Shown piece by piece: positions 24,032 to 53,625 of a stretch of 64,000 nt of DNA. Positions within the stretch are counted from its first letter, which is position 1. Each line of letters starts with the position of its first letter. Source of the stretch: Trypanosoma brucei (taxonomy: Eukaryota); assembly GCA_000002445.1 (NCBI GenBank), contig CP000071.1, positions 256,001 through 320,000 on the forward strand, written 5' to 3'. A model generated the notes under the pieces. The model was not told where the DNA came from, did no database searches, and worked only from the letters and a program-made list of their open reading frames with translations. A program made the position numbers and the translations under genes.

Positions 24032-24063
<32 letters not shown>

Positions 24064-30356: not shown

Positions 30357-31094
30357 AACAACAGTTATTAAACTCCTACAAACTCTACACATATCATCAC
30401 AGAGGTTTTTTAAAAAAAAAAATGTAAGAAGCTCAATTACGTACAAACAGGAAGTTAGTTACACAAATTGAAGCTTGTAATAAGAAACACAACAATAGCG
30501 TAAAAGGAATACATGACAGGCAAAAGCCTACAACTCCACAACAAAGGCATAATACAGTTGTATGTATAAACCAATTAGAGAAAGTTGGATTGTTTGTTTT
30601 TTTTTTTTTTAAGGCCAAACAAACACAGTTCCCCACAAAAAAAGTTTCTTCACCCACACAATTAAAAAAAAAGGAACAGCTCCCCCCCCAAAAAAAAAAA
30701 ACTGCTCTCTTTCGCATCAAACCGACAAGGAAAACGCACCGAAATCTACAGGAGTGGAAAAAAAACAATAATATAAAATTTTAAAAAAAGAAAAAAAATA
30801 CAATCCTTTACAACTCTCCAAAAAAAAATTTTAGATGAAGAAAAAAAGTGTATAATACTCTTAAAAACAGGCTTTGCATGGAACTGAAAAAAATATTTAA
30901 AAAAAAAGTTGCAAACACAGAGGTAGTTAAAAAAAAAATACAAAGTATATAACATTACAACTCTAGTTTTTTTTAATTGGCAACGATAAAACCATAACGA
31001 GAAGCCTTAAGTAACACCCAACAATGACACGTTTGCGTGTATGTAATCCCTCACGCTAATCCTTGGCTGCTACACCGAAACGGTACTACTTGGA

Positions 31095-32507: not shown

Positions 32508-32900
32508 TTGGCTCAACTCTCTCTTGGATGTGGAAATCTTGGAATGATGTTTCGTCTACAAAATGGTAAGGAAAGATAGCAACAAAAGTTGATACTATGC
32601 ATGAAATGACACGGAGAAAATGAGACCAACTGGAAGCCATAATTAGTCACTTATGCACAAGGCACAACATCTTTACGGAAAACACAACTAAAGTCGTTGA
32701 CATACATGGACTACACAACACAGAAGCAGTGATGTATATGACAGTATGCCTCAGTCACACTTCCATATGTGCATGCACGCTCATAAGCATTGCCAACTTT
32801 CTTGTTGTTCGTATCTTATCCATTCATAAAACATCCCCAACAGAGTGGCATCCATTGACAGCATGCGGTAATAAGTGCCTCCAGCAGCTGTCAGACAAGA

Positions 32901-38900: not shown

Positions 38901-39485
38901 CAGACCTTGAATCATGCTCACGTCGTCACAGTTTTCATTGCGGTGAAATGTAATGAAGGTTCCAACAGGCACTGCGTCGCCGAATCGAATAGTGTTGTCA
39001 ACATCACGTTTCAAATAGCGTGGTATGGCTTCAACAAGGCTCAGCTGCACAGACAAAGAAAGGGAGGGAAACGCATCACCAGCACATATATACACTTCAC
39101 GTACTTTCGTATCGTACCACGGGTCAATGCCCACATCATTGCTCGTAACCGTGAAATTACATGGCGCATTCTTGGATATTTTGCACTTGGAGCCAATGAT
39201 CTGTGTATTGTCACATGTACTCATACGCGAAACGAAAATATCTGCTTTGATACTCTGGTCCGTCGTTTCCACACTGAACGGTACGTTCACCAGCGGTTTG
39301 TTAGGTCGTAACACAAGTGATGCAGCTCCACTGCTGCATAAAAACGTTGACGACACGATGCACAGAACTGAAGCCCAAAAAGTAAAGGGCACCTTACAGC
39401 AATGTCGGTAACGTGGAGATAGAGAGGAAGCATGGCTGGTACCTGTGCCACAGTGGGTTGAGTCCCTTCTTAGAAACATTTGCAT
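32901..39485 (-). CDS. Giant type I membrane glycoprotein with a modular cysteine-rich ectodomain, one TM helix and a ~340-aa cytoplasmic tail (array copy 1, ~2194 aa)
   Basis: An uninterrupted 6.6-kb ORF. The first ATG is at 39485 (the track TTG start is at 39494). A hydrophobic signal segment (FTFWASVLCIVSSTFLCSSGAAS) follows a ~30-aa N-region. The ectodomain has more than 40 Cys and many NxS/T sites. The TM segment GAVIAIIVAAVLLFLLLLLLAVCFL is encoded at about 33940..34030, followed by a basic stop-transfer (RRCCSKEKEE). Confidence 0.8.
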   Translation of the reverse strand: MQMFLRRDSTHCGTGTSHASSLSPRYRHCCKVPFTFWASVLCIVSSTFLCSSGAASLVLRPNKPLVNVPFSVETTDQSIKADIFVSRMSTCDNTQIIGSKCKISKNAPCNFTVTSNDVGIDPWYDTKVREVYICAGDAFPSLSLSVQLSLVEAIPRYLKRDVDNTIRFGDAVPVGTFITFHRNENCDDVSMIQGLPPAELGSNREVRVTRSVQSVIYLCAKVPTSDGKTFVVPASVLLAVPRYDTNNTDALRHTNETFRLEAVGNLVWATFSQSPLCDPILQDPVGGETLQVVNMEVSVPKGDYFLCNGWPYHKGGRLYSPSENKVTVREYGVQPRTLYSGYGTRIKYTMDAATAAANDVKLVLDFYMYSNCTGAVRVDGPSGIQYRGPPVKKRRSRSDGGAVALPVSGTYYACLEGSTTAYPKARAAVVTVLPPPTVSFDEANVISGLDLTVLLSGHNAGRSGVITVGLSVTPECEELNSKGDVRVGASSVTFRVPEDALPNMTLCVATPSSVDLQADEEPDEGYTYPVKNIATRRYKLKHRTLFVGVAETIHLDANVTLKAGTTGYFSLDNCLTPVGETYSMNATALYGVAFSTAGRHVLCVKTPGTEHPVNRPYSNVGNVMVYGPAELSPASIVKGVSTPVKVSAVPPEAPIVFSESESCTPSISEVNATAEGEASVTVMRNTVGKVYVCVGYHDSDGGAWKVRVSGMLAVSDVEVFPRTVFVGVSNRVNFIVPDKTSLKGLKVLFKETSDVNCGEIVDDGTAVAIRITEVGPAYVVYTAVGMKKWKVCLWKGNGYEDVGLIQSQQQLELVPDSPIGVVGLPLSMRFRGEALTALQPTRFLVSESIESCQSAPGGGIRVYGEGWVDPISGSAEPFVVQKAGELHVCVGWGDTNESYYLYGGKVSAEDFAVDSLYAVRRSTNNFVARPLLKKASLFLVRCVNAASCKVPLNARICEEATERYYTGPTTPLEDVLLGEYALCQQDERRLGVAVGQKPLKVINPFTASFNVSLVRKHTPLRLTLDGGSLHIGASNLTVYIVPPELNCTEANASYDSFPFASGEHSKDVTIVKTPAVAKGARVCVGISAYDKLPASTFNIFHYMTPATIIAGRSVTVESSGIQSGRVRISTLEACTDSILSEYDTVIANSMSTLHVDKCKYRNRDLTDVYYCERGESGGYVMRGTMQLIHLDECPGGKQPAVRPVTALPAKQVTDYGIDKAILTSPFLSTRSDCNGVLSQSRATMTPRYNRNLTFYVCTHTIRDPGYVFTTDGPTLSVENFRVVNPSIHGRVDSDSEVLGPANLVMNYATRTPDTYLSDCAVCGEKIVAAPGLAETPVEEAVTLIGISGVKCVCVLGEQPTSPPIPVAEVLIITPPIVKKIDPAAVPTARFHAKLQTPVVSGAKPLYSLVPGEDAENPLAYLHNSDFRGVYLSENACATTLTGNSVGYVRPSGSVVLGPTFIPGRLPSVSLCVGTPAGNLSVVSEVEVSTDIIFPSSFVLGTEAEVYIPLSPNSAFRLRRDASCGGEDVVPFFTTDEEARGNISFKNVNAAGLPSAGVWTLCQEVFDGSATRPKIVKISANGIAARVASAKQLLPIAQIETFDPTYYNIRGRDVLLGVPGVLYLMDDLYAESLLPGFSTDRSCLRRNESHGSWALVGDDDAASARRVSVTAQNGTDSIYFCATTPVNRSVVSVPLSSSLRFIPPVSVFPSIVEPCKVTPLESCRAPDSSHRQTVVRVIKGDCCNPTDKGVTVGEASEGSDGKCKLRMNHNKIRDYPAGTEFSVCAWDLTDNTYCVTLGNVKASGDICGGSAWGPLGMGAVIAIIVAAVLLFLLLLLLAVCFLRRCCSKEKEERQLVVADKMQLDNLDMSCISGTSPDPEYLESGNNPLLLGFYSGDGSPNTNTTARTMIDGMTSGVDDFAWGGDFPGRADWTSVEEQECDDRDQIALQEARDRYNMALVFTDGIERIRVDAKELELQFDYSGEFSMYEGPTGRGVNVNPIPVTVPADHPDLLNAIYMRRASQRRRLQSQTREEIEVSVHDTMSEMSTDVHDTSRLTSYDMMSYTTTQHFYEESTFMLESEAGRRMRLVNWEEEEWQAIVDAEFSDYVRLQQAMRSIPLPLPQAVVLPFNSTATRGRDTINYSGHTHVDGEGVTVLPVYDTPPFHNPHAASVDEAQAYPNHDEESNVSLSCDSSHN

Positions 39486-41521
39486 AAATACCAAACGCTA
39501 CAACAACCTTCTCAGTACTCGCTTATTCCCTTTCTCTCAACGTGTATGCCTTTATGCTCTTGCAGAAAACTATTTACGGTGTGCGTATTCGCCAACCCGC
39601 GTAAACCTAAGACGATTGTGCACAGACTCCTCTGTCTCTGTCTCTCACACTAGTTCCTTACCACGCGACCCGTTTAAGAGGGAAGTGGCTAAACTATGTA
39701 AGGTGCTTATGGAATTACTACGGTACTGACCTTCACTTATCTTCGTGTACTCCGTTTAACTTTCAATTGCCCCTCCGCAGTGATGAACTCTTTTGTTTGA
39801 TTTCTTCTATGGTTGCTTCTATCCTCAGTTACTATGAAGATACAGCTGTATCTATTACCTCCGTTACTCGACAAAAATGTTTCCCCGGTGAAAAAGGGAT
39901 GTGCCTCTATGGATATACAAATGTATGAGTCCACAAATGTATGGATATGCAGGTGTAGAAAATATGCGACCCTACACGTACAGCTTTTCTATGTAACGTC
40001 CTGTTGAAATGGTCCTCGTTTACTCTTATTTGTGCTTTCTCGTATCGTTGTCGATCTCCTTCCCGTTCCACAACAGACTTTTCTCGCAATATCGCTCGCC
40101 TGTGTATCGGTAAATCAATTCACAAAACACCTTTATGGTAGGAACGGTATATCAAACTGATGAATATTTAGTGTGCGAAGCTTGAGGCTACGCTACTGAT
40201 CAATGCGGACAACACGTCGGGCAGAAAACTACAGAAACTAAAACAAAAGGGCTAAAAATGCGGTAAAAAAATCTATAAACCTATGTAAATGATGGTAGCG
40301 ATATATTGTCAGAGCTGCTTCGCGAAACAGAAATGGCAACTGAATGGCTAACTAAAAAAAACAAAAAAGATCTAGCAGTAATATCGCGCTGCTTCTGCAC
40401 AACGTCTAAAGTGTGATGCACGGAAAGGAAGTAGTTTTTCAAGAGAAGTGCACACAAAATGGTAAGCACATGGGTGAGGAATGCGCTCCATAGACATCAA
40501 TGAATAAACCCCGCGCACACAAGCAAGTGAAACGACATATCAAAAGAAGTTACAATGCAACACTTAAAGAGTACAACATGTGCTGGTGAAGTAACAAAAC
40601 CCACACATTCACTTTTTAAAAATGGTCAAAAGATATAATGCCCCTGAATTTATTAAGAAGAGGTGGGCATCAGGGTAGCACAGGCGGATACAACTCCAGG
40701 CCAAGAGGGCAACAAAGACATATGAACTGCAAGTGCAAACAATTACTATAATGTTTTACATTTAGCAACCGACACACTATAAATGACCACAAGGGACTTT
40801 AACATGTCCCCGATAGATCCACCCACAATCGCTAAACGAAGTAATTCAAGCGAGCACATAAACTCACGGCAACATTCCAAGCGTAGCAAACACAATGTAG
40901 TGGAGAGCAGACGTACAGCACCTGGAAGGCGCCATCTCAAACTCGGTACTCACTAATACATACCACACAGCTGCACAGTTCAGTCATATAATGAACATTA
41001 AACGGTTATATATATAATAACTGCTACAATAAGGAAAAAAAGGGAGGGGGGAAAGGGAAGCAATTATGAAGTCAAGACTAAATTAATACTTTACATACAC
41101 AGCAGAGAATTGCACAATCTGTAAAGCGCTCACACATGTAAGTATACACAAGAAGGAGTAAACACTAAAATGAAAACACGGATGAAAATAATGAAGAAAC
41201 GCTAACGCACCTGCTCACCAACACAACATAGCAGTCTACATTGCTGTATATGTGATGTGCATAAAATGTCGAGAAACTAGGAACAAACACTAAATAAAGG
41301 TACCAGAATAGCCATGCCGATACTTTAAAAGAAAAAAAGAATTTATAAAAAAATATATTAGGATCATGATTAGCATATAAAAGTGAAAACGCTATTGAAA
41401 ACAATGGCAACGATAAAACCATAACGAGAAGCCTTAAGTAACACCCAACAATGACACGTTTGCGTGTATGTAATCCCTCACGCTAATCCTTGGCTGCTAC
41501 ACCGAAACGGTACTACTTGGA

Positions 41522-42934
41522 CTACAAAAGACCAACTAATGTGAAAGTAAGGGAAAATAATAATAAGCGTAAATTGTGGTTCTTATTGCTTGCTGCACTT
41601 CCCATTGAAGACAAACGACCTTCACCAAACTCGATCAGAGAAGCAACTCCAGCCACCTCCATCGTTTTATTCAGTTTGACCTCTTTTCTCCGCACGGCAA
41701 TGCTGGCAATAGTAATCAGCTGTGTGGATGTATTCAGATCTTCAAGCATATGAGAGACCACACGTGTGTCACTCTCCAGTCGCTCCGAGAGATTTGGAAA
41801 GTTGTCCATAAGTTTCTTCCTCATATCATCCAGAGATTTGGGTGTCACCACCCAAGCTGTTCCCCCGCACACCTCAGCAGCCTTCTTTGCTTTCTCATCT
41901 GCAGCATTTCCAGCTATCTTCCTTAGCGTATTTTCCATGAGTGGTAGGTAATGAGCCCTTATACTTTTGAGATTCCTTGCATACCTGCTTACCTTCTTAA
42001 ACACATTCTGTGCTTTACTTACTGCTTTCGCAACCTCAGCAACGGCCCGCTTCACCTGATCCATGTGTCCCCCCGGACGCTTTGCATCCGCTTGGCTCCG
42101 TTCCTCCACTTTAGAAACCATTGCAGAACGGCTCACAGCTTGCTCCGTGAATGCGTCCACTGCACCTTTTAGGCCTCTGTACTGCTCAACCATCAAACAC
42201 ACTGCTTGTGTCTGATTCAGAGTAAGATTGTACTTTCTGGTGATAGAGGCCTTTGTTCCCTCGACCAGTTCCTTCACCGTAGACTCACCTTTGAGCGCCA
42301 CCGACCTCCAAGTAACGACATTGTAGAGCACAAACTCCAGCTTCCACAGCTCCCCGGAACTTTCCCGGGTGTCATCCTCCAAACCTTCCGAAGCACCCTC
42401 AGGTAACGTACTAAACAACTCCAACAGCGTACCGTTAAGGGAATCGGAAGACACGCTTTCAGCAGCTCCCTTGCATTTTTCAGCCGCGCTCCTGACTCTC
42501 CAATTGGAATTGTGTCCTGCCACCTCCTTCAACATGCGCTCTAACGCTGCTACACGATTGCTCCTGATCTCTTCAATATTCTCCGCCCTAAACTCAGTCT
42601 CAATGGATGCGGTTTCAGCTTTCTTGGCGGCCTCAGTAACGTTGGAAGCAACACGCTTCGCACGCTCGACGGGATCGGTGGCATTTCTGTTCTCCCACAA
42701 GACATCCTCAGCCAAAGTTACATATTCATCACTCCGAGTCTTGGCATTCGATATCTTCAATGATTCGGTAGTTATCCAATATTTTAGGTCACGGACGGCA
42801 TCTTTCAGTCCCCTGAACTGCTTCAGAGCATTACACAATGTAACAGTTTGCTCAAGTGTAAGATTATTGTTCTTACCAACAGCAAATGGCATGCACAGGA
42901 GTACAACTGCTGTGAAACAGGTGAATCGTGTCAT
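41522..42934 (-). CDS. Ala/Lys-rich GPI-anchor-type surface protein, array copy 2 (2 aa differences from copy 1: I->V, E->G)
   Basis: Identical to copy 1 except for two substitutions, at a 10,427-bp offset. Confidence 0.8.
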   Translation of the reverse strand: MTRFTCFTAVVLLCMPFAVGKNNNLTLEQTVTLCNALKQFRGLKDAVRDLKYWITTESLKISNAKTRSDEYVTLAEDVLWENRNATDPVERAKRVASNVTEAAKKAETASIETEFRAENIEEIRSNRVAALERMLKEVAGHNSNWRVRSAAEKCKGAAESVSSDSLNGTLLELFSTLPEGASEGLEDDTRESSGELWKLEFVLYNVVTWRSVALKGESTVKELVEGTKASITRKYNLTLNQTQAVCLMVEQYRGLKGAVDAFTEQAVSRSAMVSKVEERSQADAKRPGGHMDQVKRAVAEVAKAVSKAQNVFKKVSRYARNLKSIRAHYLPLMENTLRKIAGNAADEKAKKAAEVCGGTAWVVTPKSLDDMRKKLMDNFPNLSERLESDTRVVSHMLEDLNTSTQLITIASIAVRRKEVKLNKTMEVAGVASLIEFGEGRLSSMGSAASNKNHNLRLLLFSLTFTLVGLL

Positions 42935-43327
42935 TTGGCTCAACTCTCTCTTGGATGTGGAAATCTTGGAATGATGTTTCGTCTACAAAATGGTAAGGAA
43001 AGATAGCAACAAAAGTTGATACTATGCATGAAATGACACGGAGAAAAGGAGACCAACTGGAAGCCATAATTAGTCACTTATGCACAAGGCACAACATCTT
43101 TACGGAAAACACAACTAAAGTCGTTGACATACATGGACTACACAACACAGAAGCAGTGATGTATATGACAGTATGCCTCAGTCACACTTCCATATGTGCA
43201 TGCACGCTCATAAGCATTGCCAACTTTCTTGTTGTTCGTATCTTATCCATTCATAAAACATCCCCAACAGAGTGGCATCCATTGACAGCATGCGGTAATA
43301 AGTGCCTCCAGCAGCTGTCAGACAAGA

Positions 43328-46300
43328 TTAGTTGTGCGACGAATCACATGAGAGAGAAACATTGCTTTCCTCATCGTGATTGGGATACGCCTGCGCTTCG
43401 TCGACGGATGCCGCATGCGGATTATGAAAAGGTGGTGTGTCGTATACAGGCAGCACAGTGACTCCTTCACCGTCAACATGGGTGTGCCCGCTGTAATTTA
43501 TAGTGTCTCTGCCACGAGTCGCAGTTGAGTTGAAGGGAAGCACAACGGCTTGGGGTAGTGGTAGAGGAATCGAGCGCATGGCCTGCTGCAAACGGACATA
43601 ATCACTAAACTCGGCATCAACTATCGCCTGCCACTCCTCTTCCTCCCAGTTCACGAGCCGCATACGCCGCCCAGCCTCGCTTTCAAGCATAAACGTCGAC
43701 TCCTCGTAGAAGTGCTGTGTAGTGGTGTAACTCATCATGTCATAACTCGTGAGCCGCGACGTATCATGAACGTCCGTCGACATCTCTGACATGGTATCAT
43801 GAACGGAAACCTCGATTTCCTCACGTGTTTGCGATTGCAAGCGCCGACGCTGTGAGGCACGCCTCATATAAATGGCATTCAGCAGGTCCGGGTGATCTGC
43901 CGGTACAGTCACAGGTATTGGATTGACATTCACACCCCTGCCAGTCGGACCCTCATACATGCTGAATTCTCCACTGTAGTCAAATTGTAGTTCCAGTTCC
44001 TTTGCATCCACGCGGATACGCTCAATACCGTCTGTAAAGACAAGCGCCATGTTGTAGCGGTCCCTCGCCTCCTGTAATGCGATCTGATCACGATCATCAC
44101 ACTCTTGCTCCTCGACAGAAGTCCAGTCCGCCCTCCCAGGAAAGTCACCGCCCCACGCAAAGTCGTCAACACCCGATGTCATGCCATCGATCATCGTCCT
44201 CGCGGTGGTATTGGTATTGGGGGAACCATCACCAGAGTAGAACCCCAGAAGCAGTGGGTTGTTACCGCTTTCCAAATATTCGGGGTCGGGAGATGTTCCA
44301 CTGATACAAGACATGTCGAGATTGTCCAGCTGCATCTTATCTGCAACGACAAGTTGTCGCTCCTCCTTCTCCTTAGAGCAGCATCGTCGCAAAAAGCACA
44401 CGGCAAGCAACAACAGCAGCAGAAACAGCAACACAGCTGCCACAATAATGGCAATCACCGCCCCCATTCCCAATGGACCCCAAGCAGACCCACCACATAT
44501 ATCCCCACTTGCCTTCACATTACCCAAAGTAACGCAGTAGGTATTGTCTGTGAGGTCCCATGCGCAAACACTGAACTCCGTGCCCGCGGGGTAGTCTCTA
44601 ATTTTGTTGTGGTTCATCCTCAACTTACACTTGCCATCTGAGCCCTCACTGGCTTCCCCGACGGTGACGCCCTTGTCAGTGGGGTTGCAGCAGTCACCCT
44701 TGATCACACGCACAACCGTCTGGCGGTGGGAAGAGTCCGGTGCACGGCACGACTCGAGTGGTGTCACCTTACAAGGTTCCACTATCGAAGGAAATACACT
44801 GACGGGTGGAATGAAGCGGAGGCTAGAGCTCAAAGGGACACTGACGACTGAACGGTTGACAGGAGTGGTAGCGCAGAAATATATCGAGTCCGTACCATTT
44901 TGCGCGGTAACAGAAACACGGCGGGCGCTTGCCGCGTCATCATCACCCACCAGTGCCCAACTTCCATGTGATTCATTTCGACGCAGGCAACTTCTGTCTG
45001 TGCTAAAACCGGGAAGCAAGCTCTCAGCATACAGGTCGTCCATCAAGTACAGAACGCCAGGAACACCAAGAAGGACGTCTCTCCCACGAATATTGTAATA
45101 CGTAGGGTCAAATGTCTCAATCTGCGCAATCGGGAGGAGCTGCTTTGCCGAAGCAACACGTGCTGCTATCCCATTAGCGCTTATTTTCACAATTTTGGGA
45201 CGCGTCGCACTGCCGTCAAAAACCTCCTGGCAGAGCGTCCACACACCCGCGGATGGTAACCCGGCCGCATTCACGTTCTTGAACGATATATTACCACGCG
45301 CCTCCTCGTCAGTCGTAAAGAATGGCACCACGTCCTCACCACCACAGGAAGCATCTCGCCGCAGACGAAATGCTGAGTTTGGCGACAGAGGAATGTACAC
45401 CTCTGCCTCCGTCCCCAGAACAAATGACGACGGAAAGATGATATCAGTAGAAACCTCCACTTCCGATACAACACTGAGGTTCCCGGCGGGGGTCCCAACG
45501 CACAACGACACGGAAGGCAACCTCCCTGGAATGAAGGTCGGACCCAGTACAACGCTGCCGCTCGGCCGCACGTAACCCACAGAGTTCCCCGTCAGAGTGG
45601 TTGCGCACGCATTTTCGGAGAGATATACGCCACGAAAGTCGGAGTTGTGTAGATACGCAAGTGGGTTCTCTGCGTCTTCCCCGGGCACTAACGAGTACAA
45701 TGGCTTTGCTCCAGAGACCACAGGTGTCTGCAGTTTTGCGTGAAACCGAGCAGTGGGAACCGCCGCAGGATCGATCTTCTTCACGATGGGCGGAGTTATG
45801 ATGAGAACCTCCGCTACTGGTATTGGAGGCGAGGTGGGTTGTTCCCCCAATACACATACACATTTCACGCCTGAGATACCTATTAGCGTAACCGCCTCCT
45901 CAACTGGGGTCTCTGCAAGACCGGGGGCCGCCACAATCTTCTCGCCACACACCGCGCAATCGCTTAGGTACGTGTCCGGTGTTCGGGTAGCGTAGTTCAT
46001 CACTAAGTTCGCAGGCCCTAGCACCTCGCTGTCGCTATCCACACGTCCATGAATGCTAGGGTTCACAACACGGAAGTTTTCCACTGAAAGCGTCGGGCCA
46101 TCTGTTGTGAAGACATACCCAGGATCCCTTATTGTGTGTGTACACACATAAAACGTAAGATTCCGATTGTACCGTGGCGTCATTGTGGCTCTGCTCTGAC
46201 TAAGTACTCCATTGCAGTCACTCCTTGTGGAAAGAAAGGGACTGGTAAGGATCGCCTTGTCAATGCCATAGTCGGTTACTTGTTTCGCTGGAAGCGCCGT

Positions 46301-49300
46301 CACCGGCCGTACCGCAGGCTGCTTTCCACCGGGGCATTCATCTAAGTGAATCAGTTGCATAGTCCCACGCATAACATACCCACCGCTTTCCCCACGCTCA
46401 CAATAGTACACATCTGTCAGATCACGGTTCCGGTATTTGCACTTATCCACATGCAGCGTTGACATAGAGTTGGCTATGACCGTGTCGTACTCACTCAAGA
46501 TACTGTCAGTACACGCTTCTAAGGTGGAGATCCTCACCCTCCCACTTTGAATGCCACTGGACTCCACGGTCACACTGCGACCTGCAATAATCGTCGCAGG
46601 AGTCATGTAGTGAAAAATATTGAAAGTAGATGCAGGCAACTTATCATACGCAGAAATACCGACACACACCCTGGCACCCTTCGCCACAGCTGGCGTCTTC
46701 ACAATGGTAACATCCTTACTGTGTTCGCCGGAAGCAAAGGGAAAACTGTCATACGAAGCATTCGCCTCTGTGCAGTTAAGCTCTGGGGGGACAATGTAAA
46801 CGGTGAGATTCGACGCCCCTATATGCAAGCTACCCCCATCAAGGGTCAAGCGAAGAGGTGTGTGCTTCCGTACGAGTGACACATTAAAGGACGCCGTAAA
46901 CGGGTTAATCACCTTAAGGGGCTTCTGACCAACAGCAACTCCCAAACGCCGCTCATCCTGCTGACACAATGCATATTCGCCTAGTAGAACATCCTCCAAG
47001 GGAGTAGTTGGCCCAGTGTAGTAGCGCTCAGTCGCCTCCTCACAAATCCTTGCATTCAGTGGGACTTTGCAGGAAGCGGCGTTGACACAGCGCACGAGGA
47101 ACAAAGATGCCTTCTTAAGCAGCGGTCTTGCCACAAAATTATTCGTTGACCTACGGACAGCGTACAGAGAATCCACAGCAAAATCCTCAGCACTTACCTT
47201 CCCTCCGTACAAGTAATACGATTCATTGGTATCACCCCACCCCACGCAAACATGCAGTTCGCCAGCCTTCTGAACCACAAAAGGTTCTGCACTCCCACTT
47301 ATGGGGTCAACCCAACCCTCACCGTACACCCTAATGCCACCACCGGGGGCACTTTGGCACGACTCAATGCTCTCGCTCACAAGAAAGCGTGTTGGCTGCA
47401 GCGCAGTCAGCGCCTCTCCTCGAAACCTCATGCTGAGGGGAAGACCAACAACGCCAATAGGTGAATCCGGCACAAGCTCTAGCTGCTGCTGTGACTGAAT
47501 TAAACCTACATCTTCGTATCCATTCCCCTTCCACAGGCATACCTTCCATTTCTTCATACCAACAGCTGTGTAGACCACATACGCCGGACCCACTTCAGTA
47601 ATTCTAATAGCAACGGCAGTACCATCATCCACAATTTCGCCACAGTTCACATCACTCGTTTCCTTAAAAAGCACCTTCAGACCTTTGAGGGAGGTCTTAT
47701 CAGGTACAATAAAATTGACTCGATTGCTTACGCCAACGAACACGGTCCTGGGGAATACCTCCACATCGGAAACAGCTAACATACCCGATACCCTCACTTT
47801 CCAGGCACCCCCATCACTGTCATGGTAACCAACACATACGTACACCTTGCCAACTGTGTTGCGCATCACCGTCACGGACGCCTCCCCTTCAGCCGTTGCA
47901 TTTACCTCAGAAATGGATGGTGTGCAGCTCTCACTTTCACTGAACACTATGGGCGCCTCAGGCGGTACGGCGGACACCTTGACGGGTGTACTGACACCTT
48001 TTACAATGGAAGCCGGCGACAACTCCGCAGGACCGTATACCATGACATTCCCAACGTTCGAATAGGGGCGATTCACAGGATGTTCCGTGCCCGGTGTCTT
48101 CACACACAGCACATGTCTACCCGCAGTAGAAAACGCAACGCCGTACAGGGCAGTTGCATTCATGGAGTATGTCTCCCCGACTGGTGTAAGGCAATTATCC
48201 AGGGAGAAATACCCGGTTGTTCCTGCCTTGAGAGTCACGTTGGCATCAAGATGAATCGTCTCAGCCACACCCACGAAAAGGGTCCGGTGTTTCAGTTTGT
48301 ATCGCCGCGTCGCAATATTCTTCACAGGGTAGGTATATCCCTCGTCAGGTTCCTCGTCCGCTTGTAGGTCGACAGATGAGGGAGTCGCGACACACAAAGT
48401 CATGTTCGGGAGTGCGTCCTCAGGAACTCGAAACGTGACAGAACTTGCGCCAACTCTCACATCACCTTTTGAGTTGAGTTCCTCACACTCCGGGGTTACC
48501 GATAAACCAACCGTTATCACACCACTCCGCCCCGCATTGTGGCCGCTCAACAAAACCGTCAAATCAAGTCCACTGATCACGTTGGCTTCATCAAATGATA
48601 CCGTCGGTGGCGGCAGAACTGTCACAACAGCCGCACGCGCCTTGGGGTATGCAGTCGTGCTCCCCTCAAGACACGCGTAGTACGTACCTGAAACAGGTAA
48701 GGCAACTGCACCCCCATCCGAACGCGAGCGACGCTTCTTTACTGGGGGGCCCCGATATTGGATTCCTGATGGACCATCCACACGCACAGCCCCTGTACAG
48801 TTGGAATACATGTAGAAATCAAGCACCAACTTCACATCGTTAGCAGCTGCAGTCGCTGCATCCATTGTATACTTAATGCGAGTCCCGTACCCACTGTATA
48901 GGGTCCGTGGCTGAACGCCGTACTCCCGAACAGTTACCTTGTTCTCAGATGGTGAATATAACCTGCCACCCTTGTGGTAGGGCCAACCATTACACAGAAA
49001 ATAGTCACCTTTAGGCACAGAAACCTCCATATTAACAACCTGCAACGTTTCCCCACCCACGGGGTCCTGAAGGATCGGATCACATATGGGTGACTGAGAA
49101 AAAGTTGCCCACACGAGGTTGCCTACAGCCTCCAAGCGAAATGTTTCGTTCGTGTGCCGAAGTGCATCAGTGTTGTTCGTGTCATAACGTGGCACAGCAA
49201 GTAACACAGAGGCAGGAACGACGAAAGTTTTGCCATCACTCGTGGGTACCTTAGCACAAAGATAAATTACGCTTTGGACACTCCGTGTCACTCTCACCTC

Positions 49301-49912
49301 CCGGTTAGAACCCAGTTCGGCAGGTGGCAGACCTTGAATCATGCTCACGTCGTCACAGTTTTCATTGCGGTGAAATGTAATGAAGGTTCCAACAGGCACT
49401 GCGTCGCCGAATCGAATAGTGTTGTCAACATCACGTTTCAAATAGCGTGGTATGGCTTCAACAAGGCTCAGCTGCACAGACAAAGAAAGGGAGGGAAACG
49501 CATCACCAGCACATATATACACTTCACGTACTTTCGTATCGTACCACGGGTCAATGCCCACATCATTGCTCGTAACCGTGAAATTACATGGCGCATTCTT
49601 GGATATTTTGCACTTGGAGCCAATGATCTGTGTATTGTCACATGTACTCATACGCGAAACGAAAATATCTGCTTTGATACTCTGGTCCGTCGTTTCCACA
49701 CTGAACGGTACGTTCACCAGCGGTTTGTTAGGTCGTAACACAAGTGATGCAGCTCCACTGCTGCATAAAAACGTTGACGACACGATGCACAGAACTGAAG
49801 CCCAAAAAGTAAAGGGCACCTTACAGCAATGTCGGTAACGTGGAGATAGAGAGGAAGCATGGCTGGTACCTGTGCCACAGTGGGTTGAGTCCCTTCTTAG
49901 AAACATTTGCAT
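43328..49912 (-). CDS. Giant type I membrane glycoprotein, array copy 2 (one L->I difference seen)
   Basis: Identical to copy 1 at a 10,427-bp offset apart from SQSPLCDP vs SQSPICDP. Confidence 0.8.
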   Translation of the reverse strand: MQMFLRRDSTHCGTGTSHASSLSPRYRHCCKVPFTFWASVLCIVSSTFLCSSGAASLVLRPNKPLVNVPFSVETTDQSIKADIFVSRMSTCDNTQIIGSKCKISKNAPCNFTVTSNDVGIDPWYDTKVREVYICAGDAFPSLSLSVQLSLVEAIPRYLKRDVDNTIRFGDAVPVGTFITFHRNENCDDVSMIQGLPPAELGSNREVRVTRSVQSVIYLCAKVPTSDGKTFVVPASVLLAVPRYDTNNTDALRHTNETFRLEAVGNLVWATFSQSPICDPILQDPVGGETLQVVNMEVSVPKGDYFLCNGWPYHKGGRLYSPSENKVTVREYGVQPRTLYSGYGTRIKYTMDAATAAANDVKLVLDFYMYSNCTGAVRVDGPSGIQYRGPPVKKRRSRSDGGAVALPVSGTYYACLEGSTTAYPKARAAVVTVLPPPTVSFDEANVISGLDLTVLLSGHNAGRSGVITVGLSVTPECEELNSKGDVRVGASSVTFRVPEDALPNMTLCVATPSSVDLQADEEPDEGYTYPVKNIATRRYKLKHRTLFVGVAETIHLDANVTLKAGTTGYFSLDNCLTPVGETYSMNATALYGVAFSTAGRHVLCVKTPGTEHPVNRPYSNVGNVMVYGPAELSPASIVKGVSTPVKVSAVPPEAPIVFSESESCTPSISEVNATAEGEASVTVMRNTVGKVYVCVGYHDSDGGAWKVRVSGMLAVSDVEVFPRTVFVGVSNRVNFIVPDKTSLKGLKVLFKETSDVNCGEIVDDGTAVAIRITEVGPAYVVYTAVGMKKWKVCLWKGNGYEDVGLIQSQQQLELVPDSPIGVVGLPLSMRFRGEALTALQPTRFLVSESIESCQSAPGGGIRVYGEGWVDPISGSAEPFVVQKAGELHVCVGWGDTNESYYLYGGKVSAEDFAVDSLYAVRRSTNNFVARPLLKKASLFLVRCVNAASCKVPLNARICEEATERYYTGPTTPLEDVLLGEYALCQQDERRLGVAVGQKPLKVINPFTASFNVSLVRKHTPLRLTLDGGSLHIGASNLTVYIVPPELNCTEANASYDSFPFASGEHSKDVTIVKTPAVAKGARVCVGISAYDKLPASTFNIFHYMTPATIIAGRSVTVESSGIQSGRVRISTLEACTDSILSEYDTVIANSMSTLHVDKCKYRNRDLTDVYYCERGESGGYVMRGTMQLIHLDECPGGKQPAVRPVTALPAKQVTDYGIDKAILTSPFLSTRSDCNGVLSQSRATMTPRYNRNLTFYVCTHTIRDPGYVFTTDGPTLSVENFRVVNPSIHGRVDSDSEVLGPANLVMNYATRTPDTYLSDCAVCGEKIVAAPGLAETPVEEAVTLIGISGVKCVCVLGEQPTSPPIPVAEVLIITPPIVKKIDPAAVPTARFHAKLQTPVVSGAKPLYSLVPGEDAENPLAYLHNSDFRGVYLSENACATTLTGNSVGYVRPSGSVVLGPTFIPGRLPSVSLCVGTPAGNLSVVSEVEVSTDIIFPSSFVLGTEAEVYIPLSPNSAFRLRRDASCGGEDVVPFFTTDEEARGNISFKNVNAAGLPSAGVWTLCQEVFDGSATRPKIVKISANGIAARVASAKQLLPIAQIETFDPTYYNIRGRDVLLGVPGVLYLMDDLYAESLLPGFSTDRSCLRRNESHGSWALVGDDDAASARRVSVTAQNGTDSIYFCATTPVNRSVVSVPLSSSLRFIPPVSVFPSIVEPCKVTPLESCRAPDSSHRQTVVRVIKGDCCNPTDKGVTVGEASEGSDGKCKLRMNHNKIRDYPAGTEFSVCAWDLTDNTYCVTLGNVKASGDICGGSAWGPLGMGAVIAIIVAAVLLFLLLLLLAVCFLRRCCSKEKEERQLVVADKMQLDNLDMSCISGTSPDPEYLESGNNPLLLGFYSGDGSPNTNTTARTMIDGMTSGVDDFAWGGDFPGRADWTSVEEQECDDRDQIALQEARDRYNMALVFTDGIERIRVDAKELELQFDYSGEFSMYEGPTGRGVNVNPIPVTVPADHPDLLNAIYMRRASQRRRLQSQTREEIEVSVHDTMSEMSTDVHDTSRLTSYDMMSYTTTQHFYEESTFMLESEAGRRMRLVNWEEEEWQAIVDAEFSDYVRLQQAMRSIPLPLPQAVVLPFNSTATRGRDTINYSGHTHVDGEGVTVLPVYDTPPFHNPHAASVDEAQAYPNHDEESNVSLSCDSSHN

Positions 49913-51832
49913 AAATACCAAACGCTACAACAACCTTCTCAGTACTCGCTTATTCCCTTTCTCTCAACGTGTATGCCTTTATGCTCTTGCAGAAAACTAT
50001 TTACGGTGTGCGTATTCGCCAACCCGCGTAAACCTAAGACGATTGTGCACAGACTCCTCTGTCTCTGTCTCTCACACTAGTTCCTTACCACGCGACCCGT
50101 TTAAGAGGGAAGTGGCTAAACTATGTAAGGTGCTTATGGAATTACTACGGTACTGACCTTCACTTATCTTCGTGTACTCCGTTTAACTTTCAATTGCCCC
50201 TCCGCAGTGATGAACTCTTTTGTTTGATTTCTTCTATGGTTGCTTCTATCCTCAGTTACTATGAAGATACAGCTGTATCTATTACCTCCGTTACTCGACA
50301 AAAATGTTTCCCCGGTGAAAAAGGGATGTGCCTCTATGGATATACAAATGTATGAGTCCACAAATGTATGGATATGCAGGTGTAGAAAATATGCGACCCT
50401 ACACGTACAGCTTTTCTATGTAACGTCCTGTTGAAATGGTCCTCGTTTACTCTTATTTGTGCTTTCTCGTATCGTTGTCGATCTCCTTCCCGTTCCACAA
50501 CAGACTTTTCTCGCAATATCGCTCGCCTGTGTATCGGTAAATCAATTCACAAAACACCTTTATGGTAGGAACGGTATATCAAACTGATGAATATTTAGTG
50601 TGCGAAGCTTGAGGCTACGCTACTGATCAATGCGGACAACACGTCGGGCAGAAAACTACAGAAACTAAAACAAAAGGGCTAAAAATGCGGTAAAAAAATC
50701 TATAAACCTATGTAAATGATGGTAGCGATATATTGTCAGAGCTGCTTCGCGAAACAGAAATGGCAACTGAATGGCTAACTAAAAAAAACAAAAAAGATCT
50801 AGCAGTAATATCGCGCTGCTTCTGCACAACGTCTAAAGTGTGATGCACGGAAAGGAAGTAGTTTTTCAAGAGAAGTGCACACAAAATGGTAAGCACATGG
50901 GTGAGGAATGCGCTCCATAGACATCAATGAATAAACCCCGCGCACACAAGCAAGTGAAACGACATATCAAAAGAAGTTACAATGCAACACTTAAAGAGTA
51001 CAACATGTGCTGGTGAAGTAAAAAAAACCCACACATTCACTTTTTAAAAATGGTCAAAAGATATAATGCCCCTGAATTTATTAAGAAGAGGTGGGCATCA
51101 GGGTAGCACAGGCGGATACAACTCCAGGCCAAGAGGGCAACAAAGACATATGAACTGCAAGTGCAAACAATTACTATAATGTTTTACATTTAGCAACCGA
51201 CACACTATAAATGACCACAAGGGACTTTAACATGTCCCCGATAGATCCACCCACAATCGCTAAACGAAGTAATTCAAGCGAGCACATAAACTCACGGCAA
51301 CATTCCAAGCGTAGCAAACACAATGTAGTGGAGAGCAGACGTACAGCACCTGGAAGGCGCCATCTCAAACTCGGTACTCACTAATACATACCACACAGCT
51401 GCACAGTTCAGTCATATAATGAACATTAAACGGTTATATATATAATAACTGCTACAATAAGGAAAAAAAGGGAGGGGGGAAAGGGAAGCAATTATGAAGT
51501 CAAGACTAAATTAATACTTTACATACACAGCGGAGAATTGCACAATCTGTAAAGCGCTCACACATGTAAGTATACACAAGAAGGAGTAAACACTAAAATG
51601 AAAACACGGATGAAAATAATGAAGAAACGCTAACGCACCTGCTCACCAACACAACATAGCAGTCTACATTGCTGTATATGTGATGTGCATAAAATGTCGA
51701 GAAACTAGGAACAAACACTAAATAAAGGTACCAGAATAGCCATGCCGATACTTTAAAAGAAAAAAAGAATTTATAAAAAAATATATTAGGATCATGATTA
51801 GCATATAAAAGTGAAAACGCTATTGAAAACAA

Positions 51833-51962
51833 TGGCAACGATAAAACCATAACGAGAAGCCTTAAGTAACACCCAACAATGACACGTTTGCGTGTATGTA
51901 ATCCCTCACGCTAATCCTTGGCTGCTACACCGAAACGGTACTACTTGGACTACAAAAGACCA
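51833..51962. repeat. Partial third repeat unit (3' flank of the surface gene, ~130 bp) preceding the mosaic paralog
   Basis: Identical to 30978..31107 and 41405..41534, then diverges abruptly 3 codons before the stop of the paralog. Confidence 0.9.
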
Positions 51963-53329
51963 GTTCCTAGCAAACACACCAGAAAAGACGCAAATGCTAT
52001 GGGTGTAGTAGTAGGAGAGTAGTCGGTCTCTCGGTTTAATTTTAATTCGGCAGCTTGAGCGTACTGCATCGCGGCATTGAGTTGTTTGTATTCCCTGTGG
52101 AGAATAGTAAGACTTTCGATCAATTTCGCCGTATCTTTTTTTAGTCTTTTGGAAGATTGGGCGGGAATGCTGTGGAAAAGCCCATTTTTTGTGTCCTCCA
52201 GAGATTTAGGTGTTACAACCTCGGCCGTCTCTCTGCATGCCTCAGCAGCCTTCCTTGTTGCTTGTGAGGCGGCGTATTGAGAAATCGACAAGAGTGTTTT
52301 TTCAAGGGAACCTGCATATGCGGCTGCAACAGATTTCATATAAACCGAGTGACCTGTTAAAGCTCGATACGCTTTTTCCGCCGCCTCGGCAGCTTCCGCA
52401 ATTTCATTAACAGTCTCCCTCACCCGCTGCGACAAGAGCTTGCCTTTGCCATCCTCATTTGCCTCTTCCGCGAGCTGAACAACATTATCACTCCTTATTT
52501 TAGCATCAGCAGCCTTTTGGGCCATGGTCTTGGAAATTTCTTCAATGTTGCTGACAAAAATGGGTAGTGCCCTGTACTGTTCAGCGGCAATACACAATGC
52601 TTGTGTCTGTTGTAGTGTGAGATTGTACCTCTTTCCGTATGCAGACACAGCTTTTGTAACAGCTTCCCGAACCCTAAACTCAGTATATTCCGCATTTATT
52701 TTTATTTCGACAAGGGATTGGGCTGCGCCCTCGAGTTTGTGGAGTTTGTTGGAAGCGTCGCGGGTAGCTTCCTTCAACCTCTTAATCGACTTCGCAGGGA
52801 AATATTGCAACATATCGTCCAGCGCATGTATTAGAGATTCAACGGTCACATTTTTAGTGGTTTTGTTGCATGATTTTGCAACCCCTTTCACCTCTACAGT
52901 TCCTCCTTCGTTCCCTAACTTCTTCAATGCACCCTCAAGCGAGGGTACGTAGGCGCTACTGATGGTTCCAAGAACTCCGGCATCAACATCAGATTCCAAA
53001 ATCACAATTTCCGCTTTTTTAACGGCCTCAGTAACGTTGGCAGCAAGAACTCTGGCTCGTTTTTCTAGAGCCTTAGCCTTTGTGGTCGCCTGAGCGGGCT
53101 CTTTAACACGCCTCAACTGTTCATCACTCCGAGTCTTGGCATTCGATATCTTCAATGATTCGGTAGTTATCCAATATTTTAGGTCACGGACGGCATCTTT
53201 CAGTCCCCTGAACTGCTTCAGAGCATTACACAATGTAACAGTTTGCTCAAGTGTAAGATTATTGTTCTTACCAACAGCAAATGGCATGCACAGGAGTACA
53301 ACTGCTGTGAAACAGGTGAATCGCGTCAT
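51950..53329 (-). CDS. Mosaic paralog of the Ala-rich GPI-anchor-type surface protein (459 aa): shared 5' end and 3' end, divergent core
   Basis: The first 73 residues (signal peptide plus first helix) and the 5' flank are nucleotide-identical to the array copies. The last 3 codons (GLL-stop) plus ~120 bp of 3' flank are also identical. The central ~385 codons are a diverged but similarly Ala/Lys/Glu-rich helical sequence with a different GPI tail (PIAFASFLVCLLGTGLL). Confidence 0.75.
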   Translation of the reverse strand: MTRFTCFTAVVLLCMPFAVGKNNNLTLEQTVTLCNALKQFRGLKDAVRDLKYWITTESLKISNAKTRSDEQLRRVKEPAQATTKAKALEKRARVLAANVTEAVKKAEIVILESDVDAGVLGTISSAYVPSLEGALKKLGNEGGTVEVKGVAKSCNKTTKNVTVESLIHALDDMLQYFPAKSIKRLKEATRDASNKLHKLEGAAQSLVEIKINAEYTEFRVREAVTKAVSAYGKRYNLTLQQTQALCIAAEQYRALPIFVSNIEEISKTMAQKAADAKIRSDNVVQLAEEANEDGKGKLLSQRVRETVNEIAEAAEAAEKAYRALTGHSVYMKSVAAAYAGSLEKTLLSISQYAASQATRKAAEACRETAEVVTPKSLEDTKNGLFHSIPAQSSKRLKKDTAKLIESLTILHREYKQLNAAMQYAQAAELKLNRETDYSPTTTPIAFASFLVCLLGTGLL

Positions 53330-53625
53330 TTGGCTCAACTCTCTCTTGGATGTGGAAATCTTGGAATGATGTTTCGTCTACAAAATGGTAAGGAAAGATA
53401 GCAACAAAAGTTGATACTATGCATGAAATGACACGGAGAAAATGAGACCAACTGGAAGCCATAATTAGTCACTTATGCACAAGGCACAACATCTTTACGG
53501 AAAACACAACTAAAGTCGTTGACATACATGGACTACACAACACAGAAGCAGTGATGTATATGACAGTATGCCTCAGTCACACTTCCATATGTGCATGCAC
53601 GCTCATAAGCATTGCCAACTTTCTT
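53119..53625. repeat. ~505-bp segment identical to 32299..32803 and 42726..43230 (small-gene 5' coding end plus upstream spacer)
   Basis: Direct alignment by eye. Homology stops ~97 bp short of where the giant gene's stop codon lies in the array units. Confidence 0.9.

What the first reader, a model, noticed from the sequence alone, without database searches (positions are those of the whole stretch)
51833..53625. Mosaic third paralog with identical ends and a divergent core, a signature of segmental gene conversion
The paralog at 51950..53329 shares exact nucleotide identity with the array copies over ~505 bp at its 5' end, covering the spacer, signal peptide and first 73 codons. It shares ~131 bp at its 3' end, covering the last 3 codons and the flank. 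About 385 internal codons are a clearly different though compositionally similar sequence with a different GPI tail. Sharp identity breakpoints at about 53119 and 51962 are what segmental gene conversion or recombination between family members produces. This resembles VSG mosaic formation but is seen here in a non-VSG surface family. Alternatively, the ancestral locus held only this gene, and the giant-gene plus small-gene unit was later inserted next to it using these homologies.
Basis: seen in the sequence. Interest (0 to 1): 0.75.

Follow-up and report, generated by a model that had tools for sequence, protein, structure and literature searches.

The report
Surface-protein gene with recombined identical ends
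A Trypanosoma brucei salivary-gland-stage surface protein gene (Tb927.8.970) has ends base-for-base identical to its two neighbouring paralogues and a middle that diverged long ago, a clear but ordinary case of the partial gene conversion and unequal crossing-over already documented in this parasite's tandem gene arrays.

Summary
The window is T. brucei brucei TREU927 chromosome 8. The gene at 51950-53329 (minus strand) is Tb927.8.970 (459 aa).

- **Identical ends:** it shares 506 bp (53120-53625) at 100% with Tb927.8.930 and 99.6% with Tb927.8.950. It shares 130 bp (51833-51962) at 100% with both.
- **Divergent core:** the 386 codons between are about 30% identical in protein. Synonymous sites are saturated (pS 0.66) and there is no gradient. 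All four boundaries are sharp to the base.

All three genes encode two tandem GARP-type three-helix bundles. They flank the giant gene FCP1 (Tb927.8.940/960).

An exhaustive HMMER search found no donor for the core; its nearest relative is the neighbouring paralogue itself. The best reading is two old paralogues whose ends were recently homogenised by recombination. The same homology blocks explain the 10.4-kb unit duplication and the absence of the 970-type core in T. b. gambiense.

Chimaeric copies in T. brucei tandem arrays are well documented, and this duplication is already tabulated. It is a new example of a known kind, of modest interest.

The parts
51950..53329 (-). Tb927.8.970 coding sequence (459 aa plus stop). 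It has a signal peptide, two tandem GARP-type three-helix-bundle domains and a hydrophobic C-terminal tail. This is the 'mosaic' gene (X type).
   Evidence: ORF. Exact match to AAZ12868.1 / Tb927.8.970. Pfam GARP PF16731 E=1e-117 with 2 stretches. AF2 model plus Foldseek to 6xz6, 5vtl and 2y44 with target TM-score 0.84-0.85.
53120..53625 (-). 5' homology block h5 (506 bp). It comprises 296 bp upstream of the ATG, including the polypyrimidine tract and AG splice-acceptor region, plus codons 1-70 (signal peptide and almost all of predicted helix 1, residues 27-73).
   Evidence: 100% identical to 32298-32803 and 99.6% to 42725-43230. Sharp edges. Helix 1 limits.
51963..53119 (-). Divergent X core: about 386 codons, roughly 30% protein identity to the Y core, synonymous sites saturated.
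   Evidence: No closer relative anywhere in 1.84e9 representative proteins.
51833..51962 (-). 3' homology block h3 (130 bp): the last base of codon 456, the last 3 codons (GLL), the stop codon and 117 bp of 3' flank.
   Evidence: 100% identical to 30978-31107 and 41405-41534.
41522..42934 (-). Tb927.8.950, Y-type paralogue (470 aa).
   Evidence: Its h5 copy is 42725-43230 and its h3 copy 41405-41534.
31095..32507 (-). Tb927.8.930, Y-type paralogue (470 aa).
   Evidence: Its h5 copy is 32298-32803 and its h3 copy 30978-31107.
30978..41404 (-). Tandem unit 1 (10,427 bp): h3, Y core, h5, intergenic sequence, FCP1 (Tb927.8.940, CDS 32901-39485) and intergenic sequence.
   Evidence: FCP1 identity.
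41405..51832 (-). Tandem unit 2 (10,428 bp), containing Tb927.8.950 and FCP1 copy Tb927.8.960 (CDS 43328-49912). It differs from unit 1 at only 9 positions.

Best explanation
Tb927.8.970 (X) and Tb927.8.930/950 (Y) are anciently diverged paralogues. Both encode a T. brucei-specific, GPI-anchored surface protein of the salivary-gland stage with two GARP domains, and they sit as direct repeats on either side of the flagella-connector gene FCP1.

The two short blocks they still share are h5 (506 bp: splice-acceptor region, 5' UTR, signal peptide, helix 1) and h3 (130 bp: last codons plus proximal 3' UTR). These blocks have been kept or made identical by recent homologous recombination between the repeats. 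That recombination could be gene conversion, repeated unequal crossing-over, or both.

Exchange stops at the base where the cores become too different to pair. This gives knife-edge breakpoints and leaves the cores as two distinct isoforms.

The same blocks act as substrates for larger rearrangements:
- An unequal crossover in h3 converts X-FCP1-Y into the X-FCP1-Y-FCP1-Y arrangement seen here.
- A crossover in h5, or a conversion spanning the core and anchored in h5 and h3, gives the Y-FCP1-Y arrangement of T. b. gambiense.

Shown: the block structure, the saturation of the core, the absence of any other donor, the subspecies difference and the ancestral synteny. Inferred: the recombination mechanism, that the ends rather than the core are the converted parts, and the order of events.
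For: 1. The ends are identical over 636 bp, including non-coding and synonymous sites, while the core has pS 0.66 and pN 0.47 with no gradient.
2. X and Y are collinear two-domain proteins. Domain 1 pairs with domain 1 at 26% and domain 2 with domain 2 at 31%, about as distant as other GARP-family proteins. The core divergence is therefore old.
3. Exhaustive HMMER of the X core finds Y as the only substantial relative (35%). Next come three single-domain GARP proteins, from T. congolense, T. brucei (Tb11.02.2370) and T. vivax, at E of 1e-8 or weaker. No external donor needs to be invoked.
4. The outer edges of h5 and h3 are exactly the edges of the repeated gene segment in both TREU927 and gambiense.
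5. T. b. gambiense DAL972 has PAGM-Y-FCP1-Y-UQcon. A Y core sits in the slot that holds X in TREU927, and there is only one FCP1. The two gambiense Y copies share 15 subspecies-specific substitutions and differ from each other at 3 sites in 1826 bp, so the proximal Y is a recent local copy.
6. The two 10.4-kb units differ at 9 sites. h5 of 970 shares G at 53324 with the non-adjacent 930 copy, while 950, both gambiense copies and equiperdum have A. This is the pattern expected from recent exchange.
7. An independent T. b. equiperdum assembly reads from the PAGM flank through h5 and about 150 nt into X-type core.
8. Partial conversions that span start or stop codons and UTRs are documented in 21 of 47 T. 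brucei tandem arrays (PMC1855330).
Against: - No direct observation distinguishes conversion of the ends from replacement of a core.
- A 130-bp block is short to be maintained over long periods by conversion alone.
- Only one or two informative SNPs bear on recent exchange within TREU927.
- The gambiense assembly was scaffolded on TREU927 and could have omitted an X-type copy. The authors note such omissions at other loci (PMC2854126).
- The T. b. equiperdum gene becomes an uninterpretable X/Y mixture about 150 nt into the core, so the 3' junction of X rests on the TREU927 assembly alone.
- The region between PAGM and FCP1 could not be examined in any outgroup species.
Confidence: 0.68

Rival explanations
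1. Core replacement (cassette or VSG-like mosaic). A recent duplication produced two Y-type genes flanking FCP1, as in gambiense. The core of the PAGM-proximal copy was then overwritten by an X-type sequence from an ectopic or allelic donor, using h5 and h3 as homology arms. A variant of this idea: X and Y are ancient allelic forms (a dimorphism) of one slot that were later brought into cis.
For: - The gambiense arrangement Y-FCP1-Y has the same outer repeat edges.
- The proximal slot holds different cores in different genomes: X in TREU927 and at least partly in T. b. equiperdum, Y in gambiense.
- h5 and h3 are the right size to serve as recombination arms.
Against: - No donor exists among 1.84 billion representative proteins or in the first word-based search. 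The closest relative of the X core is Y itself at 35%.
- A donor would itself need h5/h3-like ends, which only moves the problem elsewhere.
- The X core must predate the subspecies split because dS is saturated. Its absence from gambiense is therefore more simply a loss.
Confidence: 0.17
2. Assembly artefact. The TREU927 reference either joined reads of an unlinked X gene into the array, or strung two haplotypes (X-FCP1-Y and Y-FCP1-Y) in tandem.
For: - Tandem arrays are the hardest regions to assemble, and copy number can be arbitrary (PMC1855330; PMC2854126).
- The two units differ at only 9 sites, a level compatible with allelic differences.
Against: - The PAGM flank, h5 and X junction is reproduced in an independent T. 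b. equiperdum assembly.
- A T. equiperdum OVI short-read contig breaks 31 bp inside h5, as expected at a genuine repeat edge.
- Tb927.8.970 transcripts are reported as up-regulated in salivary glands (PMC8483307).
- Haplotype stringing could alter copy number but cannot create the h5-X-h3 structure.
Confidence: 0.05
3. The ancestral locus held only the 970 gene, and a giant-gene plus small-gene unit was later inserted next to it through these homologies.
For: The Y-type gene between FCP1 and the ubiquitin-conjugating enzyme gene is absent in T. vivax. At least that small gene is therefore a lineage-specific addition.
Against: FCP1 homologues lie directly upstream of the UQ_con gene in T. vivax (42% identity, L005) and in Leishmania tarentolae (L006). 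The giant gene is ancestral at this position and was not inserted.
Confidence: 0.03
4. Ordinary divergence after duplication, with strong purifying selection preserving the ends.
For: The ends encode functional signals: the splice-acceptor region, the signal peptide and the end of the GPI signal.
Against: - Selection does not preserve every synonymous site of 70 codons plus more than 400 bp of non-coding sequence while neighbouring synonymous sites are saturated.
- The identity profile is a step, not a slope.
Confidence: 0.01

Closest known systems
Chimaeric copies and partial gene conversion in T. brucei tandem gene arrays (Jackson 2007, PMC1855330; Jackson et al. 2010, PMC2854126)
   Same: - Tandemly repeated, often surface-protein genes whose copies show regions of incompatible history.
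- Conversion tracts frequently span start or stop codons and UTRs.
- Subspecies-specific isoforms and copy-number differences occur between T. b. brucei and T. b. gambiense.
- The 10.3-kb duplication at this very locus is listed there (Tbg972.8.540: unit 10,346 bp, 2 copies in T. b. brucei).
   Different: - The contrast here is extreme: 100% identity against saturation.
- The repeated genes are separated by an unrelated 6.6-kb gene.
- That table scored the locus as having 0 unique isoforms. The Tb927.8.970 mosaic is not mentioned in any paper I could find.
VSG segmental gene conversion (mosaic VSG formation) in T. brucei
   Same: Conserved upstream and 3'-terminal blocks flank a divergent surface-protein core and can act as recombination anchors. 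The organism and recombination machinery are the same (own knowledge).
   Different: - There is no archive of donors; only two core types are seen.
- There are no 70-bp repeats or expression site.
- The core itself is not a patchwork: no low-pS patches were found within it.
- The genes lie in a chromosome-internal polycistron and are expressed in the tsetse salivary gland stage.
GARP / MISP / factor H receptor / BARP family of trypanosome three-helix-bundle surface proteins (Pfam PF16731)
   Same: - Pfam GARP match, E=1e-117.
- phmmer to the T. brucei factor H receptor 6xz6, E=2e-9.
- Foldseek target TM-score 0.84-0.85 to 6xz6, MISP 5vtl and T. congolense GARP 2y44.
- Signal peptide, hydrophobic C-terminal tail and salivary-gland expression.
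   Different: - Each polypeptide has two GARP domains in tandem. The solved relatives and the nearest homologues found are single-domain proteins of about 270 aa.
- No ligand or function is known.
Dimorphic surface antigens with conserved flanking blocks (e.g. Plasmodium falciparum MSP1/MSP2 allelic dimorphism; own knowledge)
   Same: Two deeply diverged core types sit between conserved blocks with sharp boundaries. Recombination is confined to the conserved blocks.
   Different: Here the two types are paralogues in cis. Allelic segregation of X and Y at the proximal slot is only a possibility raised by the TREU927/gambiense difference and has not been shown.

Membership tests
GARP-domain surface proteins (Pfam PF16731) | Significant match to the GARP profile HMM above the gathering threshold | tested here: met
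   X scores 391 bits and Y 231.9 bits against a cut-off of 27.4, each with two matched stretches.
GARP-domain surface proteins (Pfam PF16731) | Elongated three-helix-bundle fold like GARP, MISP and the factor H receptor | tested here: met
   The AF2 model (mean pLDDT 72) is all-helical with two bundles. Foldseek against PDB gives 6xz6, 5vtl and 2y44 at E about 4e-5, target TM-score 0.84-0.85, rmsd 2.6-3.0 Å.
GARP-domain surface proteins (Pfam PF16731) | N-terminal signal peptide and C-terminal GPI-addition signal | tested here: inconclusive
   The hydrophobic N-terminus MTRFTCFTAVVLLCMPFAVG and the hydrophobic C-terminal tail are visible in the translation. No predictor was run here. Savage 2012 predicted GPI anchors for 930 and 950 only. 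Naguleswaran 2021 lists 970 as GPI-anchored.
Partial gene conversion / concerted evolution in a tandem array | Abrupt change of relatedness along the alignment (breakpoints), not explained by selection | tested here: met
   The profile is a step at four boundaries. Non-coding and synonymous sites are identical in the blocks and saturated in the core.
Partial gene conversion / concerted evolution in a tandem array | Paralogues within a genome are more alike than positional orthologues between genomes | tested here: met
   15 substitutions are fixed between TREU927 and gambiense yet shared by both copies within each genome. The gambiense proximal copy carries a Y core where TREU927 has X.
Partial gene conversion / concerted evolution in a tandem array | Non-reciprocal transfer demonstrated, with donor and recipient identified | not testable with these tools
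   Direction cannot be polarised. No outgroup carries h5 or h3, and only one or two informative SNPs exist.
VSG-type mosaic gene formation | Core assembled from segments of several archive donors | tested here: not met
   No donor for any part of the X core was found in 1.84e9 representative proteins. No low-divergence patches lie inside the core. Unannotated subtelomeric DNA could not be searched.
VSG-type mosaic gene formation | 70-bp repeats upstream and a telomeric expression-site context | tested here: not met
   The gene lies in an internal polycistron between PAGM and FCP1. TRF finds no such repeats.

The most novel reading that the evidence does not exclude
The PAGM-proximal slot may be a two-state cassette. 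In this reading h5 and h3 are fixed homology arms between which either the X or the Y core can be installed from the cis paralogue or the other allele. T. brucei populations would then be dimorphic (X in TREU927 and T. b. equiperdum, Y in gambiense) for a salivary-gland/metacyclic-stage surface protein. The dimorphism would be maintained by selection in the fly or at the bite site. That would make it a small, chromosome-internal analogue of antigen-cassette switching outside the VSG system.
Probability: 0.15. Interest if true: 0.6.

Novelty: new member of a known kind. Interest (0 to 1): 0.3.

Why it matters
The locus shows especially cleanly how short identical blocks at gene ends drive three things in T. 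brucei core chromosomes: homogenisation of expression and targeting signals, copy-number change of an unrelated gene trapped between the repeats (FCP1, one copy in gambiense and two in TREU927), and gain or loss of a whole surface-protein isoform between subspecies.

It flags Tb927.8.970 and Tb927.8.930/950 as two very different isoforms (about 30% identity) of a double-GARP surface protein expressed in the tsetse salivary gland. The family includes the factor H receptor and MISP. The difference matters for anyone studying transmission-stage surface proteins, or mapping short reads to these genes, because reads from h5 and h3 are not copy-specific.

It does not reveal a new mechanism.

Tried and rejected
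- **Donor search for the core.** The word-based search of 5.8e9 proteins and exhaustive HMMER of 1.84e9 representatives found only the Y paralogue and three distant single-domain GARP proteins.
- **Exact look-up of the 459-aa product in assemblies**. Nothing was on record. TREU927 itself appears not to be in that positional index, so presence in other strains could not be surveyed. The 90% cluster holding Tb927.8.970 has an unrelated 56-aa representative, which is a clustering glitch and carries no information.
- **T. b. equiperdum IVM-t1 locus as an independent witness**. It is useful for the 5' junction only. From about 150 nt into the core the sequence is an indel-ridden mix of X and Y k-mers, most likely a consensus of collapsed copies. 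I did not interpret it as a real recombinant.
- **Dating homogenisation from TREU927-gambiense differences.** Only 2 of the 15 subspecies-fixed sites lie in h5/h3, so the expected number of differences in the ends is too low for a significant test. I dropped this argument.
- **Polarising which lineage h5 belongs to** by comparison with the internal domain repeat and outgroup proteins. Identities of 36-41% for all comparisons are uninformative.
- **Gradient or older conversion patches inside the core**. None were found. The three 39-64-nt patches at 77-87% coincide with conserved protein motifs.
- **Rfam, tandem-repeat and Pfam scans of the neighbourhood**. They added nothing to the finding.
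Full report
**Identity of the locus**

The window is Trypanosoma brucei brucei TREU927 chromosome 8. Exact protein look-ups identify these genes, all on the minus strand:

| Coordinates | Gene | Product |
|---|---|---|
| 31095-32507 | Tb927.8.930 | 470 aa |
| 32901-39485 | Tb927.8.940 | 2194 aa |
| 41522-42934 | Tb927.8.950 | 470 aa |
| 43328-49912 | Tb927.8.960 | 2194 aa |
| 51950-53329 | Tb927.8.970 | 459 aa (the finding) |
| 55464-57272 | Tb927.8.980 | phosphoacetylglucosamine mutase (PAGM) |

Downstream of 930 lies a ubiquitin-conjugating enzyme gene at 29874-30446 (Pfam UQ_con). The giant gene is the flagella connector protein FCP1 (PMC6529878).

**Checking the observation**

BLASTN and the repeat finder confirm a 10,427-bp tandem unit. 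Unit 1 is 30978-41404 and unit 2 is 41405-51832. A partial third unit follows, in which only the two ends of the small gene are retained.

- 53120-53625 (506 bp, called h5 here) is 100% identical to 32298-32803 and 99.6% identical to 42725-43230.
- 51833-51962 (130 bp, h3) is 100% identical to both other copies.
- Between them (51963-53119) only three patches of 39-64 nt at 77-87% are detectable.

Base-level views show all four edges are abrupt.

In a codon alignment the first 70 codons carry a single synonymous difference from 950. The 506-bp block is fully identical to 930. The 386-codon core has pS 0.66 (dS about 1.6, saturated) and pN 0.47, and protein identity is 15-47% per 40-codon window. 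The first window after the breakpoint is already at 33% protein and 56% nucleotide identity.

Chance is excluded: a perfect 130-nt run against about 50% background identity has probability near 7e-40.

**What the genes are**

X (970) and Y (930/950) both match Pfam GARP (PF16731) twice.

An AlphaFold2 model of X (mean pLDDT 72) is all-helical. Its best PDB matches are the T. brucei factor H receptor (6xz6), MISP (5vtl) and T. congolense GARP (2y44), at target TM-score 0.84-0.85. Sequence search gives 6xz6 at E=2e-9.

These are therefore double three-helix-bundle surface proteins. The 5' breakpoint, between residues 70 and 71, falls at the end of predicted helix 1 (residues 27-73).

h5 thus comprises the region upstream of the ATG, the signal peptide and almost all of helix 1. 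The polypyrimidine tract and AG upstream of the ATG can be read directly in the sequence shown.

The literature reports 930 and 950 as predicted GPI-anchored proteins expressed preferentially in salivary-gland and metacyclic stages (PMC3378594). It reports 950 and 970 as up-regulated in salivary glands (PMC8483307).

**Is there a donor for the core?**

The word-indexed search of 5.8 billion proteins returned only the Y cluster. An exhaustive HMMER scan of the core against 1.84 billion representatives returned four hits:

- Y, at 35% identity.
- Three single-domain GARP proteins of about 270 aa, at E between 1.7e-8 and 2.4e-4: T. congolense CCC95080, T. brucei Tb11.02.2370 and T. vivax CCD18927.

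Domain by domain, X domain 1 against Y domain 1 (outside h5) is 26% identical and domain 2 against domain 2 is 31%. This is about as far apart as either is from those other family members.

X and Y are therefore each other's nearest relatives with the same two-domain architecture, but the split is old or the cores evolved very fast. No evidence exists for an external donor. Unannotated subtelomeric DNA could not be searched.

**Comparative loci**

*T. b. gambiense DAL972* (L001, L003) reads PAGM, then a 470-aa Y gene, one FCP1, a second 470-aa Y gene, then UQcon.

- The outer repeat edges are the same as in TREU927.
- A Y core sits in the slot where TREU927 has X.
- There is a single FCP1.
- The two gambiense Y segments share 15 substitutions relative to both TREU927 Y copies and differ from each other at only 3 of 1826 sites. 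The proximal gambiense Y is therefore a recent local copy.

The 10.3-kb copy-number difference is already listed by Jackson et al. 2010 (Tbg972.8.540: unit 10,346 bp, 2 copies in T. b. brucei, 'unique isoforms 0'). The 970 mosaic is not mentioned there or in any paper retrieved by gene ID.

*T. b. equiperdum IVM-t1* (L004) runs from the PAGM flank through h5 and about 150 nt into X-type core. It then degenerates into an indel-rich X/Y mixture that I take to be a consensus artefact.

*T. equiperdum OVI*: a short-read contig ends 31 bp inside h5, as expected at a true repeat edge.

*Outgroups*: the FCP1 homologue lies directly upstream of the UQ_con gene in T. vivax (42% identity, L005) and in Leishmania tarentolae (L006). 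No GARP-like sequence lies between them.

FCP1-UQcon is therefore ancestral, and the small GARP genes are the lineage-specific additions.

**Mechanism**

The simplest account is that X and Y are old paralogues lying as direct repeats around FCP1. Their ends have been recently homogenised by homologous recombination.

Conversion tracts, or crossover-driven cycles of duplication and deletion, can act only where the sequences still pair. Exchange therefore stops at the base where the cores diverge. This keeps the edges sharp and protects the two core isoforms.

The observed arrangements follow from single events in these blocks:

- A crossover between h3 of X and h3 of Y on misaligned chromatids turns X-FCP1-Y into X-FCP1-Y-FCP1-Y. 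The two resulting units differ at only 9 sites.
- A crossover in h5 between the first two genes of that array, or a conversion across the core anchored in h5 and h3, gives the gambiense Y-FCP1-Y.

One site hints at exchange within the TREU927 lineage. G at 53324 is shared by the non-adjacent 970 and 930 copies, whereas 950, both gambiense copies and equiperdum carry A.

Shown: the structure, the divergence, the absence of a donor, the subspecies difference and the synteny. Inferred: the mechanism, its direction and the order of events.

**Rivals**

| Explanation | Confidence | Main point |
|---|---|---|
| Core replacement from an unseen or allelic donor (cassette or dimorphism model) | about 0.17 | It fits the X/Y difference at the proximal slot. 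It needs a donor that is not observed, and that donor would itself carry h5/h3. |
| Assembly artefact | about 0.05 | Unlikely for the mosaic itself, given the independent 5' junction, the OVI contig break and reported 970 expression. The copy number of the unit could still be imprecise. |
| Selection-only preservation of the ends | about 0.01 | Excluded by identical non-coding and synonymous sites. |

**Comparison with what is known, and novelty**

Partial gene conversion producing chimaeric copies was reported in 21 of 47 T. brucei tandem arrays, often spanning start or stop codons and UTRs (PMC1855330). Subspecies-specific mosaics and isoforms are described in the gambiense genome paper (PMC2854126).

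This locus is a particularly clean, apparently undescribed example of that known phenomenon.

The resemblance to VSG mosaics is limited to conserved ends flanking a variable core. The defining features of VSG mosaics, namely multiple donors, 70-bp repeats and an expression site, were tested and not met.

I rate it a new member of a known kind, with interest about 0.3.

The most novel reading not excluded is that the proximal slot is a two-state X/Y cassette, dimorphic among strains. I give it probability about 0.15. It would be testable with existing population read sets.

Noticed in passing
window 15300-27700: A stretch of about 12 kb is AT-rich (GC 0.27-0.34) and has no ORF longer than 151 aa on either strand. 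Its ORFs have no Pfam hits, and there are no Rfam hits or tandem repeats. It is conserved in T. b. gambiense at about 95% with many indels, and about 830 bp (26287-27118) have no gambiense counterpart in the fetched locus. This is unusually long for an intergenic region inside a T. brucei polycistron.
   Followed up: partly
window 32901-39485 and 43328-49912 (minus strand): The duplicated giant gene is FCP1, the flagella connector marker (Tb927.8.940; PMC6529878). It has two near-identical copies in TREU927 and one in gambiense. Homologues exist in T. vivax (42% identity) and Leishmania (26-28%), although the flagella connector is listed as 'not present in Leishmania'.
   Followed up: partly
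window 30978-31094 versus 41405-41521 and beyond: The three small genes share only the first 117 nt after the stop codon. Beyond that, 930 has a different 3' UTR and intergenic region (towards UQcon) from 950 and 970 (towards FCP1). This could underlie the different stage profiles reported for 930 (salivary gland plus proventriculus) and 950 (salivary-gland-specific) in PMC3378594.
   Followed up: no
L004 13400-15500 (T. b. equiperdum IVM-t1, CM010679.1): The PAGM-proximal GARP gene in this long-read assembly is X-type for about 150 nt after the breakpoint. It then becomes an indel-rich mixture of X and Y k-mers. The FCP1 ORF downstream is also split into 891-, 179- and 571-aa fragments. This is probably a collapsed-repeat consensus, but a heterozygous X/Y slot is not excluded.
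   Followed up: partly
protein cluster of Tb927.8.970 in the 90% clustering (P0005/P0006): Tb927.8.970 is clustered under an unrelated 56-aa ENA fragment as representative. This makes it invisible to representative-based searches. It is a database artefact worth knowing when interpreting 'no homologue' results.
   Followed up: yes
window 27743-29209 (minus strand): An ORF of 488 aa (465 aa as annotated in gambiense) lies downstream of the UQ_con gene and has no Pfam domain. It is conserved in position in T. vivax (464 aa, L005 10441-11835).
   Followed up: no
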